In this document: in pieces, positions 6,001 through 18,000 of the stretch | How the letters are laid out: every line of letters starts with the position of its first letter | Numbering within the stretch: position 1 is the stretch's first letter | From: Raja brachyura | Lineage: Eukaryota | DNA: 64,000 bases | NCBI GenBank assembly: GCA_963514005.1 | Contig: OY740808.1 | Location: 31,186,001 to 31,250,000 of the forward strand | Reading direction: 5' to 3' | Program-made: the position numbers

Positions 6001-9000
6001 CAATGTGTGCAGATCGCAAAACACACGGCTTTTATCCAACTAGGGTTACTCGTTTTTTATTTACCATCCAACAAAGCAATTAGCTATGTCAAGAGTGTTT
6101 TATTCTCATATGTCCCAGATAGGATTTCTGAATTCCCAATTACCTGTAATTGGTTAGTTACCCATATTTTATTTGTATCTGGTTGGGATTCAGCATAACT
6201 ACAGAAAATGCAGTGCAAAGAAATGTGTATATTGATATCATTTGCATCGCAATGCACTGATGTGAGCATTCTTGGTCCTCACTGTGGAGTTTTTTAAAAT
6301 AATATATAGTTTTTTCAAAATAATATATAGTTGTTTCAAACTCACATTTCCAAGAGTTTGATGTAAGTTTCATGTTTAAAACATGTCCATAATTTAGTAC
6401 CATTTAAAGGTTCAAGTGACTAACTGCACCATGGGTTGCAACAATCTTTGTATACAATTCCGGAAGAGCTCTTTGGTAAACTGCACCTACCATGTCTGCG
6501 CTCTTTACGTCTAATGTATATTAGTCCATGTCTGTACCATTTGCTATGGACTTTATTAGAGCCTAAGAACTTACTGAAAGCACACGCCATGCAGAGTCAT
6601 TCTGTTAGATTATTTAAACACAGAAGTCAATAATTTATCACTTGAGCCTCTGCATACGAGTGAAATCAACCTTACTCCCCACAAGTAGCAGAGCACTTGT
6701 TGCCAGATGGCAAAGAGTTGTGAAGAATAAACCTTGTCGTTTTCTTGTCATTCAATACGTGTGAAATCCATGAGCAATCAATTCTTTGCCAAAGACTTAC
6801 TGAAGTAAAAGGATGCAGAGCTTAGCTTTTTCCATTTTAGGTAAAACAAGAGAGGTCGTTCAAGGTAATCAACATAGGAGCACAGGGACTTACAGAATGA
6901 AATTGGAAGCCAAAATCATTTTTAAATACAGTCTTTTAAACACACTTTGCAGGAACAGGAAAACACCGTTTAGAATCACAGAATCATAGTCATACAGCAT
7001 GGGAGCAGGCCCTATGGCTCAACTCATCCAGGCCAACCAAATTGCCTCATCTAAACAAGTCCAATTTGCCTGCAAATGGCCCATATCCCTCCAAACCTCT
7101 CCTATCCATATACCTGTCCAAGTGTCTTAAATGCTGTTACAGTATCTCCTCTGGGATCCCATCACCCTATTGTGTGAAAAGGTGCTGCAGGTTCCTATTA
7201 AATCTTGCCCCTCTCGTTTTAAACATGTCCTCTGATTTTTGATTCCCTACCCTAGGGAAAAGACTGTGCATTCACCTTATCTATTCCCCTCATGATTTAA
7301 TACACCTGTATAAAATCACCTCTCATCCTCCTGCCCTCCAAGGAACCTGTTTTGTCTTTAGTTTTGTGCAATTATTAGAATTTGTAAATCAATCATAACC
7401 TATATTTGTATTGTTGATTGATTGCCAAGGCTCAAAGATTCAAATGCTGGAAAATTCAAATCTACTTTTTTGGGCACAACTTGTACCCTTGAGGTAAAAG
7501 ATTGTGGTTGGCACAATTAAAGGATTAAATTGCTACTTTCATACAAGCCTAGAGTGCTGTACCAACATTACATAAATATAACATGAACCACAGATTTGCT
7601 TGCGGTTTCAAACTTAGCCAACAATTAAAAATTAATCCTTTACTCCACTGTTCTTTTTATAATTTAGGAAGAATTTGCACCTTTAATTAAAGTGGAAAAT
7701 ACACATAAAAGTTTATTAAATAATAAGTTCTTAAGAATTAACTAATTTGATCAAAACTGGATGATCAAATGTTTGAATGCAATTTCATACCATGGCAATT
7801 TCAATGTAAAAATAAAATTCCTACAGTTAATTGTGCACAAAAGATTATTGTATCATTAAAAACTCAACGGACCAGACAGCATCTCTAGAGGGCATGAGTA
7901 GATGGTGTTTTAGTTACGGACCCTTCTTCAGACCTTTTGACCCGCTGAGTTACTTTGTGTTTTCTTTGTAAACCAGCATCTGCAGTTTCTTGTTTAAGAA
8001 AGGACTGCAGATGCTGGAAAAATCAAAGGTCGACAAAAATGCTGGAGAAACTCAGCGGGTGAGGCAGCAACTATGTAGCGGAGGAATAGGTGACATTTCG
8101 GGTCTTCAGAACCTTCCTTCGCTCCGTAGATGCTGCCTCACCCGCTGAGTTTCTCCAGCATTTTTGAGTACCTTCTGCAGTTTCTTGTATCTCTGACTTC
8201 ATCATACCTGATCCCAGATATCATAAACATATTATTTGAGTCACTGGTTGTTTTTAAAGGACCACTGTTATAATTTATAAGAAAGCTTATTTATTTACTG
8301 TACGATATTTCCCATGGCTGTGTTTACCATTGCAAAATACAGTTCAACACTAATTACAATCTAAAGGGTAAAATCTGTGTAAGTGCCCTTCACGGAGAAC
8401 AATTGCATTACACAAGCCAACACACTAGCCAATGCCACATATTAAATACATTAATATAAATACATAATGTTCACTATTGAATTATGTTTAGTGCATTGCG
8501 GCATAGAGTTGCAATGTTAATGATTGCTTAAAACAAAAATGTAAGGACCATAAACAAAAAGGTATTTTTAATGTAAAATATCTCCTTTTAACTGCTAAGA
8601 AACTGCTAAGAAACAGTTAGTTATTATTGAGTGTGCTCCAATCTGAACCCACAAACACAAAGGCAGATGGTCAAACCTGTGAGTGTTAAGTGCCTTTAAT
8701 GTAATGGAAGTGATGTTACTATATTTTTTTACATGTTTGCAGTCGTGTGCTTCAGTCTTTACAATATGTTACAGGCATGAGTATTTGACACCCATTCTAT
8801 GGCAAATCCCTATTTTCTTGGATAGAGATTCATAACATGATGCCAGAGAAAAAGGTAAGTCACTCAGAGATAGTATTTGAAGTTATTTCATTTCAGTATA
8901 TACATTGTGTTTTATTTACAAAGAAGCATTATTGATTCATCTCTTTTATACACCAAAGAACTTTCAAGCACATTTCTTTAACAACTTTTTTTCTAACAAT

Positions 9001-15000: not shown

Positions 15001-18000
15001 GCCTACGTGGTCTCTGGGTGAAGCCAGGTTTTGATTAATTGATTGAAAGATACAACATGGATACAGGCCCTTCAGCCCACCGAGTCCAAGCTGGCCATTT
15101 ACTCTAGTTGTATGTTATCGCACTCGCATCTATTCAATACATTCCAGCAGATCGAACGGGGCAATAAACGCAAGAGGTATTTCATTAAATGTGAGGGGAA
15201 TTGACCGAGAGTAGACCGGTGAAATACAAAAATGCAACGTATTTGATGTATCATCCCGGACAGCTTGCATTTGGTCTATCTGTATCACATACAATGCAGG
15301 GTCGTGCAAGCATGTTACCTTTGCATTCGTGACATTCTGTGCAATTCCATATCATCGCTCCCGCGAAATCCCTTTGCAAAGGGATTATTTTCTATTTTGA
15401 GTTGGGTAATCTAAATTAGAAATCGAAAAATGTTATAAATTCCTCACAATATGTTAACCAAATATTTTAAAACAGCACCCCGCGTAGACGCACCCTGTGA
15501 ACATAATGACAATGCAAAAACAATGGGCTTGACGTGAAGATGGACTTTAAGTGCATACCTGACCCATTATTTTTTCAAAGATAGACACAAAGTGCTGGAG
15601 GAACTCAACGGGTCAGGCAGAATCTCCGGAGAGTTTCGGGTCGGGACGCTTCTTCAGACCCTCTAGAGTAAAAGGATGGGTGCAGAAAGGTCCCGACCTG
15701 AACTGCCACCCATCATTCTTTCTCCAAAGATGCTGCCTGACCCGTTGAGTTACACCAGCCATTTGTGTCTATATTTCGTATAAACCAGCATCTGCAGTTG
15801 TTTGTTCATTTAAACTTTTCTTATTTCACAGTGTGATTTTTTATTCGTGTTTAAAGAAAGTACGTGTTTTTACTCAAACCTTCCGAACGTTTTAGAACAC
15901 GGTGACTGAGGATGCAAGAAAATGCAAAGTGCTGGAGGAACTCAACGAGTCAGGCAGCATCTGTGGAGGGAATGGACGGGCGACGTTTCGGGTCGGCACA
16001 TTTATTCAGACTGACAATATTTTTAAAATATTGAAACGGGATGGAGCACATGTCGGTATAGTTTATAGCAATGTTCTGTAACATTAATCTGTCACCGAAT
16101 TGTGTAAAACTAAGCGTGTGATATAAACCTTTGCGAGGTGACCGGTCATGCTGATTTGAAAGTTTCATTATCGCCTAGAAATCTAATGGGCACAAAAAAC
16201 AGTCGTCGAAAAGAGAATCTAAAAGCCTTTGAATTGGATTTGGTTGCTGAATAATTGCAAACCCAGTTGAAAGAGGCGGTATAAAAGTGCCCATACTGTC
16301 CAGGAAACTTCCTGGGGACTTCATATGTCTCAAGTAATTTACTGTCGCTTTCCGAACACACGTGTTAGCCGCTGCTTTGTCTGAATTGATCGGACGTTGG
16401 GTATGTTGACCATTATAGCCAAGCTGCCAAGCGCCGACTCCGGCCACGTCCGTTCCAGGTATTGATGGTGGAACAGTCGCCCTTACTAGCATTTAATGAA
16501 TTAGCCAGGTCGGATTGAAAATGAAGACATATAGAACCTAGTTTTGTGTAGGAATGAACTACAGATGCTGGTTTACACCGAAGATAGACACAACATGCTG
16601 GAGTAACTCAGCGGGACAGGCAGCATCTCTCGACCCGAAACGTCACCCATTCCTTTTATCCAGAGATGCTGCCTGTCCCGTTGAGTTTAGTTACAGTTAA
16701 TCTAGCATTTTGTGTCTTTCTTCGGTAGAACCTAGTTTGTTTTTTTTTTTTTTGGGGGGGGGGGGGGGTCTGACTTTATTATTGAATGTATTATTTATTA
16801 TTCTAAAATAATAATATTTTATTATTATTATTTGTAACAAAAGTTGCTATCTTCGTGTATTATCATCTCACTGCTCGGAAAATGTACGGCCAATATTTTA
16901 CACAACTAAATATCCTGCAGTGTGTATTTTGGGCAAGTCCAAAGGACCAATTCAAACATTAAAACTTTCCGTATATTCCGTGAGCAACTTGTGTTGACGA
17001 TTTTGAAAAGTCCTTTTCCTAAATTCGTTCCTTTTAAGGTGAGAAAATTTTATCCCGTGCTGATCCCGTCAACGGCACAACGAGGTGCAATTAGTCTACA
17101 AGTAATACTCAACAGCGTAACTTTGGGAGCTGGCGTTATAATCAATTGGGTTTTCGTAAGTGTGAAGTCACGGCGCCGTGGCATTATACAAATACAAGGC
17201 ACTACGCCACCGAAGCACCATAAATCAGAATGGAAAACATGCGGGCGTTAACTTCAGTAATATGAGCTGAACTAACTTTCATTTTTATAAAATATCTTTG
17301 AGTTATTTGAGTTTAAAGTATCCAAATTAAGTTGTTTTATAACGTATCTTATTGATAGAAAATAGCCAACTTCGATTTCATATCTCAAATAGTGCACGCA
17401 TTCTTGCTTTCAGATTTATACATTAGACAAATATTTAATATACCATGTATCTAATAACACGTCATTATTTTATATATTTCTAACAGTTTTTTTGAAAATA
17501 TTTTCGATGAACATTCCATTAATCTCAGTATGAAAATATTAGTGAGTTATTTTGAGCGTGCTTTGTGTTTAATTTGTCTTGCAAACTCCGGTCAGTATTT
17601 TTGTGTCCCAAAGTGATGAGGAATACAATCATTAAGCAGAGAGAGGGAAGGTGAGAAACGATAATGACGCGTTACTAACTCATTGATGATTAAATATCAT
17701 TTCCCCAACTAATCACAGGTTACTTTACAAAAAGCTTCAAAGTCACATGGCAGAACCTAAACGGCTTCATACTTAACATGCCCATGTTAATAAAAAGGAT
17801 AGCAGGATTCAGTTGTGCTGAGCACTAAACCTCCGGGAGTAAATGCCGCTATGTGTATGTCTAATTAATTGTCCGGCCGTCTACTTGTAAAGAGTTTTAA
17901 ATTATGTGCTTCTCAGCCAAATAGTGTATCCTGTTACTAACTTTCAACCTGCCAGTTTTGAATTAATTTGATATTTGTTCTTCAGAAGCTCACACTTTCT

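What the first reader, a model, noticed from the sequence alone, without database searches (positions are those of the whole stretch)
7979..16738. Tails-out foldback insertions bounded by a single TSD
Seen in sequence: about ten loci in the window consist of a minus copy followed by a plus copy, with both 3' tails pointing outward and a different internal junction each time (3068, 7994, 11359, 12835, 14287, 15578, 16545, 39165, 51876, 55480). Two are bracketed by perfect direct repeats (15 bp at 7979/8174; 13 bp at 16532/16726), so each of those pairs is one insertion event. Inference: both nicked target strands primed reverse transcription at the same RNA tail, possibly on two RNAs held together as a hammerhead dimer, and the cDNAs then joined internally. 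This differs from L1 twin priming, where only one tail is present. Inverted termini are known in PLEs, but these miniature MITE-mimicking products are unusually clear.
Basis: partly seen in the sequence, partly recalled or inferred. Interest (0 to 1): 0.75.

Follow-up and report, generated by a model that had tools for sequence, protein, structure and literature searches.

The report
Penelope-type head-to-head mini retroelement insertions
These short hairpin-like repeats are single insertions of a small hammerhead-carrying Penelope-like retroelement, in the head-to-head form long known for that class, and they suggest that both cut DNA strands prime copying.

Summary
A repeat of about 134 nt that starts with a minimal hammerhead-like motif gives 49 profile hits in the window. 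Of 15 neighbour pairs within 50 bp, 11 are minus-then-plus, 4 plus-then-minus and 0 tandem. Both perfect direct repeats (15 bp and 13 bp) are real. Three more pairs have one-mismatch duplications that bracket both arms. All 11 retained junctions differ, so this is not a MITE family.

The structure is already described: the canonical Penelope-like element (PLE) insertion has an adjacent inverted 5'-truncated copy inside one target-site duplication, with a 30-40 nt "tail" at only one end.

In 11 of 11 foldbacks exactly one arm carries the terminal ~33 nt, so the arms did not start at the same RNA position. In 5 of 7 informative foldbacks the tail-less arm reaches further 5' than the tailed arm, so one arm cannot be a snap-back copy of the other.

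This favours two separately templated cDNAs. It fits published in vitro work in which a PLE protein extends both target strands from two start sites. The hammerhead-dimer idea is untested. One listed locus (14287) is probably two independent insertions. No eukaryotic genome collection was available, so orthologous empty sites were not checked.

The parts
3065..3209 (.). Foldback A. Minus arm covers model 33-101 (no tail). Plus arm covers model 47-126 (tail). No TSD detected.
7860..7993 (.). Foldback B, an older event. Minus arm covers model 1-74. Plus arm covers model 60-131, and its tail is split by the insertion of foldback C and resumes after 8188.
7979..7993 (+). Left copy of the 15-bp TSD of foldback C (TCTGCAGTTTCTTGT). 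It lies in the tail of foldback B.
7994..8173 (.). Foldback C, 180 bp. Minus arm runs from model about 1-6 to 133 (tail). Plus arm covers model about 31-36 to 97 (no tail). Both arms belong to the rarer subfamily.
8174..8188 (+). Right copy of the 15-bp TSD of foldback C.
11344..11355 (+). Left TSD of foldback D (CATAGTCATATG). It matches 11926-11937 (CATAGTCGTATG) at 11 of 12 positions.
11356..11925 (.). Foldback D, 570 bp. The minus arm has no tail and extends about 260 nt 5' of the hammerhead. The plus arm has the tail and extends about 75 nt 5'. The junction is at 11712-11718, where AATGGA can be read in either arm.
12255..12267 (+). Left TSD of foldback E (TTGGTATATATTA). It matches 12397-12409 (TTGGTGTATATTA) at 12 of 13 positions.
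12268..12396 (.). Foldback E, 129 bp. Minus arm covers model 57-131 (tail). Plus arm covers model 12-62 and has an unusually short outer end.
12828..13072 (.). Foldback F. Minus arm covers model 8-100 (no tail). Plus arm covers model 1-129 (tail) and has about 24 nt of 5' extension. No TSD detected.
14266..14527 (.). Pair G: minus copy 14266-14382 (tail) and plus copy about 14411-14527 (no tail). The plus copy has its own 9/9 repeat CAATACTAC at 14402 and 14528. Probably two independent insertions 19 nt apart.
15572..15806 (.). Foldback H. Both arms reach model 1-3 and are separated by a 19-20 nt spacer. Minus arm has no tail; plus arm has the tail. No TSD detected.
16532..16544 (+). Left copy of the 13-bp TSD of foldback I (TAGAACCTAGTTT).
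16545..16725 (.). Foldback I, 181 bp. Minus arm covers model 45-133 (tail). Plus arm covers model 14 to about 100 (no tail). The arms overlap by a few nt at the junction (TCT).
16726..16738 (+). Right copy of the 13-bp TSD of foldback I.
39155..39396 (.). Foldback J (39168-39383), bracketed by ATCAGCTGATACA and ATCAGGTGATACA (12 of 13). Minus arm has no tail; plus arm has the tail. TGATACA could also be read as the end of the minus arm.
51875..52013 (.). Foldback K. Minus arm covers model 30-132 (tail). Plus arm covers model 49-93 (no tail). The arms overlap by GAGA at the junction. No TSD detected.
55480..55712 (.). Foldback L. Both arms reach model 1-3 and meet almost directly. Minus arm has the tail; plus arm has none. 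No TSD detected. The arms are no more alike than random copies.
19391..19513 (+). Reference solo copy (19404-19495, model 1-91, no tail) with its own exact 13-bp TSD CGTGTAAGATTCT. It shows that the proximal 3' end is a genuine insertion end. It lies next to the tail end of a minus copy (19518-19650).
14428..14455 (+). Best-preserved minimal hammerhead-like core (CTGAAGAAGGGTCTCGACCCGAAACGTC) at the 5' end of the 134-nt unit.

Best explanation
The window is littered with a short, non-coding, non-autonomous retroelement of the Penelope-like (PLE) kind. Its 3' module is about 134 nt, and a long form extends at least about 330 nt further 5'. The unit starts with a minimal hammerhead-like motif. 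It ends at one of two alternative 3' ends about 33 nt apart, which correspond to the PLE 'tail'.

About 11 of roughly 38 insertion events are head-to-head foldbacks. Each was made in a single integration and is bounded by one 12-15 bp target-site duplication.

Inferred mechanism: both staggered nicks of the target prime reverse transcription. One starts at the distal start site, giving the arm with the tail. The other starts at the proximal start site, giving the arm without it. The two antisense cDNAs are then joined head-to-head at a variable internal point by short-microhomology annealing and fill-in.

Shown here: family membership of the arms, orientation excess, TSDs around both arms, varied junctions, the one-tail rule and non-nested arms. 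Inferred: who primes where, the order of events, and whether one or two RNA molecules are used.
For: Family and ends:
- 49 nhmmer hits.
- 3' ends are bimodal: 19 at model 90-110, 22 at 122-133 and none at 111-121. 22 of 44 hits start at model 1.
- Motif CTGANGA + GAAA + CGTC is intact in 8 of 20 copies that cover it.

Orientation: 11 of 15 close neighbour pairs are minus-plus and 0 are tandem (P=1.2e-4).

Single events:
- TSDs bracket both arms in 5 of 11 foldbacks (15/15, 13/13, 11/12, 12/13, 12/13; each p<0.01). Only 2 of 19 solo copies reach that level.
- None of the 22 arms of the 11 foldbacks has its own TSD at p<0.01.

Arm relatedness: arms resemble each other more than background copies in 10 of 11 pairs tested, with a mean excess of 5 points (Wilcoxon p=0.0015). 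They share 21 derived variants against 11.3 expected (p=0.005). Those 11 pairs include G and M, which I later set aside, and leave out B and E, whose arms overlap too little.

One tail per event: 11 of 11 foldbacks. P=4.4e-4 given 11 tailed and 9 tail-less solo copies. Flanks of tail-less arms are not tail-like, except C+ (an old copy's tail) and, weakly, K+.

Non-nested arms: 5 non-nested, 2 nested, 4 ties. Three of the five non-nested foldbacks are TSD-bracketed.

Literature:
- Inverted 5'-truncated copy, tail at one end, hammerhead in the pLTR (PMC8557442, passages).
- 'Typical Penelope structure' with inverted pLTR, 9-bp TSD, 31-bp tail on one inverted pLTR and 15-bp junction overlap (PMC3846280, passages).
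- Both strands cleaved and extended; two internal RT start sites that delimit the tail (PMC11167929, main text).
Against: - No RT or GIY-YIG ORF is in the window. The 12 longest of 28 stop-to-stop ORFs of at least 110 aa gave 0 Pfam hits, so the autonomous partner is unseen and PLE ancestry rests on architecture and motif.
- Rfam finds no hammerhead, either at gathering scores over the whole window or at E<=10 in 11000-20000.
- Helix II shows no covariation: 78.9% of cells paired against 81.3% in shuffles.
- 6 of 11 foldbacks have no detectable TSD.
- Arm divergences from the consensus are not correlated within pairs (Spearman rho -0.02).
- Pair L is no more alike than random copies, and arm-arm identity overall is only 0.70-0.925.
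- In vitro, both strands used both start sites without preference, so the one-tail rule is not predicted by published data.
- E's tail-less arm ends at model 62, not at the usual 88-105.
- K+ has a weakly tail-like flank (p about 0.025).
- All of this comes from one 64-kb window.
Confidence: 0.68

Rival explanations
1. Self-priming (snap-back). One cDNA, or an antisense transcript, folds back on itself at a short palindrome and is copied, so the second arm is a copy of the first. The endonuclease then trims one end.
For: Arkhipova et al. 2013 proposed this from palindromes at inverted junctions (PMC3846280, passages). Short overlaps occur at some junctions here: TCT in I, GAGA in K, AATGGA in D. 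The foldbacks form very stable hairpins (z-scores -7.6 and -13.6).
Against: A copied arm can contain only what the first arm contains. In 5 of 7 informative foldbacks (A, B, D, E, I) the arm that reaches further 5' lacks the tail, while the shorter arm has it. In D, E and I intact TSDs fix the outer ends. Solo tail-less copies with their own TSD exist (19404-19495), so the proximal end does not need trimming to arise.
Confidence: 0.12
2. Two RNA molecules held together as a hammerhead dimer are each primed by one target strand.
For: Two independent templates are needed. The motif has the palindromic ACGT in place of helix III that is expected for dimeric PLE hammerheads. The PLE protein is predicted to be a dimer. 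The arms of pair L are no more alike than random copies.
Against: Two equivalent RNAs would give both-tailed and both-tail-less foldbacks about half the time, but 0 of 11 are seen. Arms share more derived variants than random pairs, as expected from one source. Hammerhead cleavage was dispensable for insertion in vitro. Inner ends are spread from about -260 to 60 rather than meeting at the hammerhead.
Confidence: 0.15
3. Independent insertions. New copies home to the 5' end of resident copies in inverted orientation.
For: Pair G: the plus arm has its own 9/9 repeat, and the arms differ in divergence (0.168 against 0.084). [quoted passage not shown] Here C sits in B's tail and the copy at 19404 sits next to a tail end. 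Random placement alone gives about 1.3 minus-plus pairs.
Against: Five TSDs bracket both arms. None of the 22 arms of the 11 retained foldbacks has its own TSD at p<0.01. There are 11 minus-plus pairs against 4 plus-minus and 0 tandem. The one-tail rule has no reason to hold for unrelated events.
Confidence: 0.07
4. A true MITE, or a foldback master element that is copied as a unit.
For: The loci are short, have inverted termini, are flanked by direct repeats and fold as hairpins.
Against: There are 11 different junctions in 11 foldbacks, unequal termini and sizes from 129 to 570 bp. TSDs are 12-15 bp rather than a fixed length. The same unit occurs as solo 5'-truncated copies with TSDs.
Confidence: 0.02

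Closest known systems
Canonical insertion architecture of endonuclease-containing Penelope-like elements (Penelope/Poseidon, Neptune, Naiad; Arkhipova et al. 2013, Craig et al. 2021)
   Same: A head-to-head inverted 5'-truncated copy lies next to the direct copy. The whole unit is flanked by one short TSD. An optional 30-40 nt tail sits on only one of the inverted ends. Junctions overlap or are palindromic. A hammerhead motif lies in the terminal repeat. Insertions occur into or next to resident copies (compared).
   Different: There is no ORF between the repeats, and the arms are only about 45-360 nt, so the product looks like a MITE. No RT/EN gene is in the window. Sequence relation to an autonomous PLE could not be tested.
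In vitro integration by the Anolis PLE protein PAc (Frangieh et al. 2024)
   Same: Both target strands are cleaved and extended. There are two internal RT start sites, and the interval between them is the genomic tail. This matches two 3'-end classes about 33 nt apart and arms primed from both sides.
   Different: In vitro, neither strand preferred a start site. Here each event shows exactly one of each, 11 of 11. Joined two-arm products were not described in the text I read.
Animal non-LTR retrozymes (short hammerhead-bearing, PLE-derived non-autonomous repeats)
   Same: Both are short, non-coding, carry a hammerhead and appear to derive from the pLTR end of PLEs. They are reported in one cartilaginous fish.
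   Different: Retrozymes are defined by tandem arrays and circular RNAs. Here 0 of 15 close neighbour pairs are tandem. That preprint classifies monomers, dimers and multimers, and I found no inverted class in it.
L1 twin priming (recalled; no paper read here)
   Same: Two target strands prime on RNA in one event, giving an inversion inside a single TSD, and only one arm carries the true 3' terminus.
   Different: From memory, L1 arms copy adjacent, essentially non-overlapping parts of the RNA. Here the second start lies only about 33 nt upstream, so both arms copy the same region and form an inverted repeat.
MITEs
   Same: Both are small, have inverted termini, are flanked by direct repeats and form hairpins.
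   Different: The junction is variable, the ends are unequal, TSD length varies, and the arms are 5'-truncated retrocopies.

Membership tests
Penelope-like element (non-autonomous derivative) | Adjacent inverted 5'-truncated copy inside one TSD | tested here: met
   5 of 11 foldbacks have TSDs bracketing both arms. 11 of 15 close neighbour pairs are head-to-head.
Penelope-like element (non-autonomous derivative) | Optional 30-40 nt 3' tail, present at only one end of an insertion | tested here: met
   3' ends are bimodal: 90-110 and 122-133, with none between. One tail per foldback in 11 of 11.
Penelope-like element (non-autonomous derivative) | Frequent 5' truncation | tested here: met
   5' starts range from model 1 to 57, and a long form extends at least about 330 nt upstream.
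Penelope-like element (non-autonomous derivative) | RT plus GIY-YIG endonuclease ORF, or sequence identity of the unit to the 3' end or pLTR of such an element | tested here: not met
   The 12 longest of 28 ORFs of at least 110 aa gave 0 Pfam hits. Shorter or frameshifted remnants were not searched. Identity to an autonomous PLE elsewhere in the genome cannot be tested with these tools.
Minimal (dimeric) PLE-type hammerhead ribozyme | Core boxes CUGANGA and GAAA, an unpaired nucleotide before helix II, GUC cleavage triplet, helix III reduced to a palindrome | tested here: met
   Window 14428-14455 shows all of these. They are intact in 8 of 20 copies that cover the motif. The features are as described in PMC4209133 (passages).
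Minimal (dimeric) PLE-type hammerhead ribozyme | Match to curated hammerhead covariance models | tested here: not met
   0 Rfam hits at gathering scores over the window. No hammerhead family at E<=10 in 11000-20000. Whether Rfam models cover hammerheads without helix III is not known to me.
Minimal (dimeric) PLE-type hammerhead ribozyme | Helix II supported by covariation | tested here: inconclusive
   78.9% of cells are paired against 81.3% in shuffles, with 1 compensatory pair. The copies are decaying, so little signal is expected.
Minimal (dimeric) PLE-type hammerhead ribozyme | Self-cleavage | not testable with these tools
   Needs an in vitro transcription and cleavage assay.
MITE (DNA transposon derivative) | Fixed terminal inverted repeats and internal sequence; TSD of fixed length | tested here: not met
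   11 different junctions, unequal ends and sizes of 129-570 bp. TSDs are 12-15 bp.
Animal non-LTR retrozyme | Head-to-tail tandem copies | tested here: not met
   0 plus-plus or minus-minus pairs among 15 neighbour pairs within 50 bp; 2 of 22 within 350 bp.
L1-type twin priming | Inverted and direct segments copy adjacent, non-overlapping RNA regions; poly(A) end | tested here: not met
   Arms overlap by 44-98 model positions in the 11 pairs measured; in B and E they overlap by only 14 and 6 positions. There is no poly(A). The definition is recalled, not read.

The most novel reading that the evidence does not exclude
Every PLE-type integration engages both start sites of a single bound RNA, one per target strand, through a dimeric RNP. 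The distal site gives the tailed arm and the proximal site gives the tail-less arm. Solo copies are events in which one cDNA was lost. On this reading the miniature foldbacks are in vivo footprints that settle the long-open question of how PLE inverted repeats and one-sided tails arise, and they exclude self-priming.
Probability: 0.3. Interest if true: 0.55.

Novelty: new member of a known kind. Interest (0 to 1): 0.33.

Why it matters
Papers from 2013, 2021 and 2024 all say that how Penelope-like elements integrate, and why they form inverted repeats and one-sided tails, is still undefined. These ORF-less mini-insertions are short enough to show both ends and the junction of single events. 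Two rules emerge from them: one tail per event, and arms that are not nested. Both could be tested genome-wide, and they discriminate dual target-primed synthesis from self-priming.

There is also a practical side. Such loci can be mistaken for MITEs or microRNA-like hairpins: lenient Rfam matches to miRNA precursor families came up, and the hairpins are very stable. When transcribed they would give double-stranded RNA.

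Tried and rejected
- Rfam at gathering scores over the window and at E<=10 on 11000-20000. No hammerhead family was found, only weak generic hairpin matches.
- Pfam on the 12 longest of 28 ORFs: nothing, so no autonomous element is visible.
- Helix II covariation: no signal.
- Within-pair correlation of arm divergence: none (rho -0.02), so similar age of the arms could not be shown.
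- Exact-match TSD scan. It missed the one-mismatch TSDs and was replaced by a local-alignment scan with a null distribution.
- Pair 57220-57736. I first counted it as a foldback and then rejected it: it has a 318-bp unrelated spacer, and the plus copy has its own 9/10 repeat.
- A degenerate tail on the minus arm of A, suggested by the alignment. Rejected, because the flank score is ordinary (p about 0.25).
- A weak pair at 2885-3036 (E about 0.004-0.009). Left out.
- TSD for B with C excised: 8 of 10, score 7.5, not significant.
- Papers PMC522041 and PMC5785218 are not held. What I say about Pyatkov 2004 and Lünse 2017 comes only through citing papers.
- One literature search failed on a term format.
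- Literature searches for this skate family and for MITE-like PLE derivatives found no description of it. That covers only the held library.

Full report
**What the window is.** It has no N and 34-47% G+C in 2-kb windows. It is eukaryotic repeat-rich DNA. I could not establish the species. I do not take it for human: minimal hammerhead and PLE families of this kind are reported absent from mammals (passages).

**The repeat family.**
- A self-comparison and iterated nhmmer searches define a unit of about 134 nt with 49 hits, 24 on the plus strand and 25 on the minus.
- The unit begins with a minimal hammerhead-like motif. The best copy is window 14428-14455, CTGAAGAAGGGTCTCGACCCGAAACGTC. It has both core boxes, one unpaired A before helix II, a GUC triplet, and the palindrome ACGT where helix III would be.
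- These are the traits published for PLE 'min-HHRs' that act as dimers (PMC4209133 passages; PMC6765202 passages).
- The motif is intact in 8 of 20 copies that cover it.
- Rfam does not recognise it, and helix II shows no covariation among these decaying copies.
- 22 of 44 stronger hits start at model position 1. About 15 of those have unrelated 5' flanks.
- Four loci share at least about 330 nt further upstream, so a long form exists.
- No RT or endonuclease ORF was found: the 12 longest of 28 ORFs gave no Pfam hit.

**Two 3' ends.** The 3' ends fall into two classes. 19 lie at model 90-110, 22 lie at 122-133, and none lies between. The interval of about 33 nt matches the PLE 'tail'. [quoted passage not shown] In vitro it is the stretch between two internal RT start sites (PMC11167929). 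A solo tail-less copy (19404-19495) has its own exact 13-bp TSD, so the proximal end is a genuine insertion end.

**The observation.**
I add two, at 7860-7993 and 12268-12396.
- Of 15 neighbour pairs within 50 bp, 11 are minus-plus, 4 plus-minus and 0 tandem (P=1.2e-4). Random placement gives 1.3 minus-plus pairs on average.
- The 15-bp and 13-bp direct repeats are exact.
- A mismatch-tolerant scan with a null from 3000 random geometries finds three more TSDs that bracket both arms: D 11/12, E 12/13 and J 12/13, each p<0.01. Only 2 of 19 solo copies reach that level.
- None of the 22 arms of the 11 retained foldbacks has its own TSD at p<0.01.
- Two exceptions were set aside. Pair G (14266-14527) has a plus copy with its own 9/9 repeat, and its arms differ in divergence. 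Pair 57220-57736 has a 318-bp unrelated spacer. About one chance pair is expected.
- The 15-bp TSD at 7979 lies in the tail of the older foldback B, so C inserted into a resident copy's tail.

**Junctions.** The inner ends differ in all 11 foldbacks, and sizes run from 129 to 570 bp. Three junctions show overlaps of a few nt that can be read in either arm: TCT in I, GAGA in K, AATGGA in D. Others are blunt or carry a few extra bases. This rules out a MITE or a copied foldback master.

**Relatedness of the arms.**
- Arm-arm identity is 0.70-0.925. It exceeds the background in 10 of 11 pairs tested (mean +5 points, p=0.0015). Those 11 include G and M and omit B and E, whose arms overlap too little.
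- Shared derived variants number 21 against 11.3 expected (p=0.005).
- Both arms of C belong to the rarer subfamily.
- Against this: divergence of the two arms from the consensus is uncorrelated within pairs (rho -0.02), and pair L is no more alike than random copies.

- In 11 of 11 foldbacks exactly one arm carries the tail. P=4.4e-4, given 11 tailed and 9 tail-less solo copies. Flank checks support the tail-less calls, with a weak caveat for K. So the arms were not primed 'at the same RNA tail'.
- In 5 of 7 informative foldbacks (A, B, D, E, I) the tail-less arm reaches further 5' than the tailed arm. Three of these have intact TSDs. A snap-back copy can hold only what its template holds, so neither arm can be a copy of the other. 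Two separately templated syntheses are required.

**Mechanism.** The simplest account is dual target-primed reverse transcription. Both staggered nicks prime, one at the distal start site and one at the proximal site. The two antisense cDNAs are then joined at a variable point by short microhomology and fill-in. [quoted passage not shown] Hammerhead cleavage was not needed there. The self-priming model of Arkhipova et al. 2013 fits the palindromic overlaps but not the non-nested arms. However, two equivalent RNAs would give both-tailed or both-tail-less products about half the time, and none is seen.

**Comparison with what is known.** Head-to-head inverted pLTRs, one TSD, a tail on one inverted pLTR and junction overlap are called the 'typical Penelope structure'. 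Cervera and de la Peña noted paired min-HHRs on opposite strands 100-700 bp apart. What is particular here is the ORF-less, miniature form and the clean counts. My searches of the held library found no description of this skate family or of a one-tail or nestedness count. Supplements, which are closed, may hold relevant hammerhead families and junction data: those of PMC4209133, and figures S1-S2 of PMC11167929.

**What stayed unchecked.**
- Orthologous or empty sites.
- Genome-wide counts.
- The autonomous partner.
- Transcription and cleavage of the hammerhead.

**Verdict.** This is a real feature and a new member of a known kind. The 'same tail' detail is wrong. The hammerhead-dimer idea is open.

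Noticed in passing
window 16739-16773: Directly after the right TSD of foldback I there is a run of about 15 T followed by about 17 G. Its origin is unknown.
   Followed up: no
window 7979-8188; 19495-19518; 52345-52382: New copies sit in or next to the tail end of resident copies. C lies inside B's tail. The TSD of the solo copy at 19404 ends 4 nt from the tail end of the minus copy at 19518. There is a tail-to-tail pair at 52269-52507. This fits the reported tendency of PLEs to insert into or beside their own copies.
   Followed up: partly
model position 1 of the unit, e.g. window 1393, 19650, 63022: Half of the copies (22 of 44) start exactly at the first base of the hammerhead motif. About 15 of these have unrelated upstream flanks, and several begin with GG. 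This could be an internal transcription start in the pLTR-like unit. Untested.
   Followed up: partly
window 2102-2354, 11456-11717, 58092-58389, 59234-59531: A long form of the element: four loci share at least about 330 nt upstream of the hammerhead. The full length and any coding part are unknown.
   Followed up: partly
window 8113, 3130, 51972: Three arm inner ends (C plus arm, A minus arm, K minus arm) fall at model 31-36, just after the predicted hammerhead cleavage site (GTC/ACC). This is as expected if some templates were self-cleaved RNAs. It is a post hoc observation on small numbers.
   Followed up: no
window 57220-57247: The minus copy at 57220-57328 has lost about 24 nt between two CCAGCA repeats of the unit. 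It looks like a slippage deletion.
   Followed up: no
window 15691-15998 and 16595-16699: Lenient Rfam matches to microRNA-precursor and other hairpin families (best E=5.6e-05, far below gathering scores) are caused by inverted copies of this repeat. This is an annotation trap.
   Followed up: yes
window 44001-46000 and 58001-62000: Strong negative GC skew (-0.26; -0.43 and -0.20) in 2-kb windows. Not examined.
   Followed up: no
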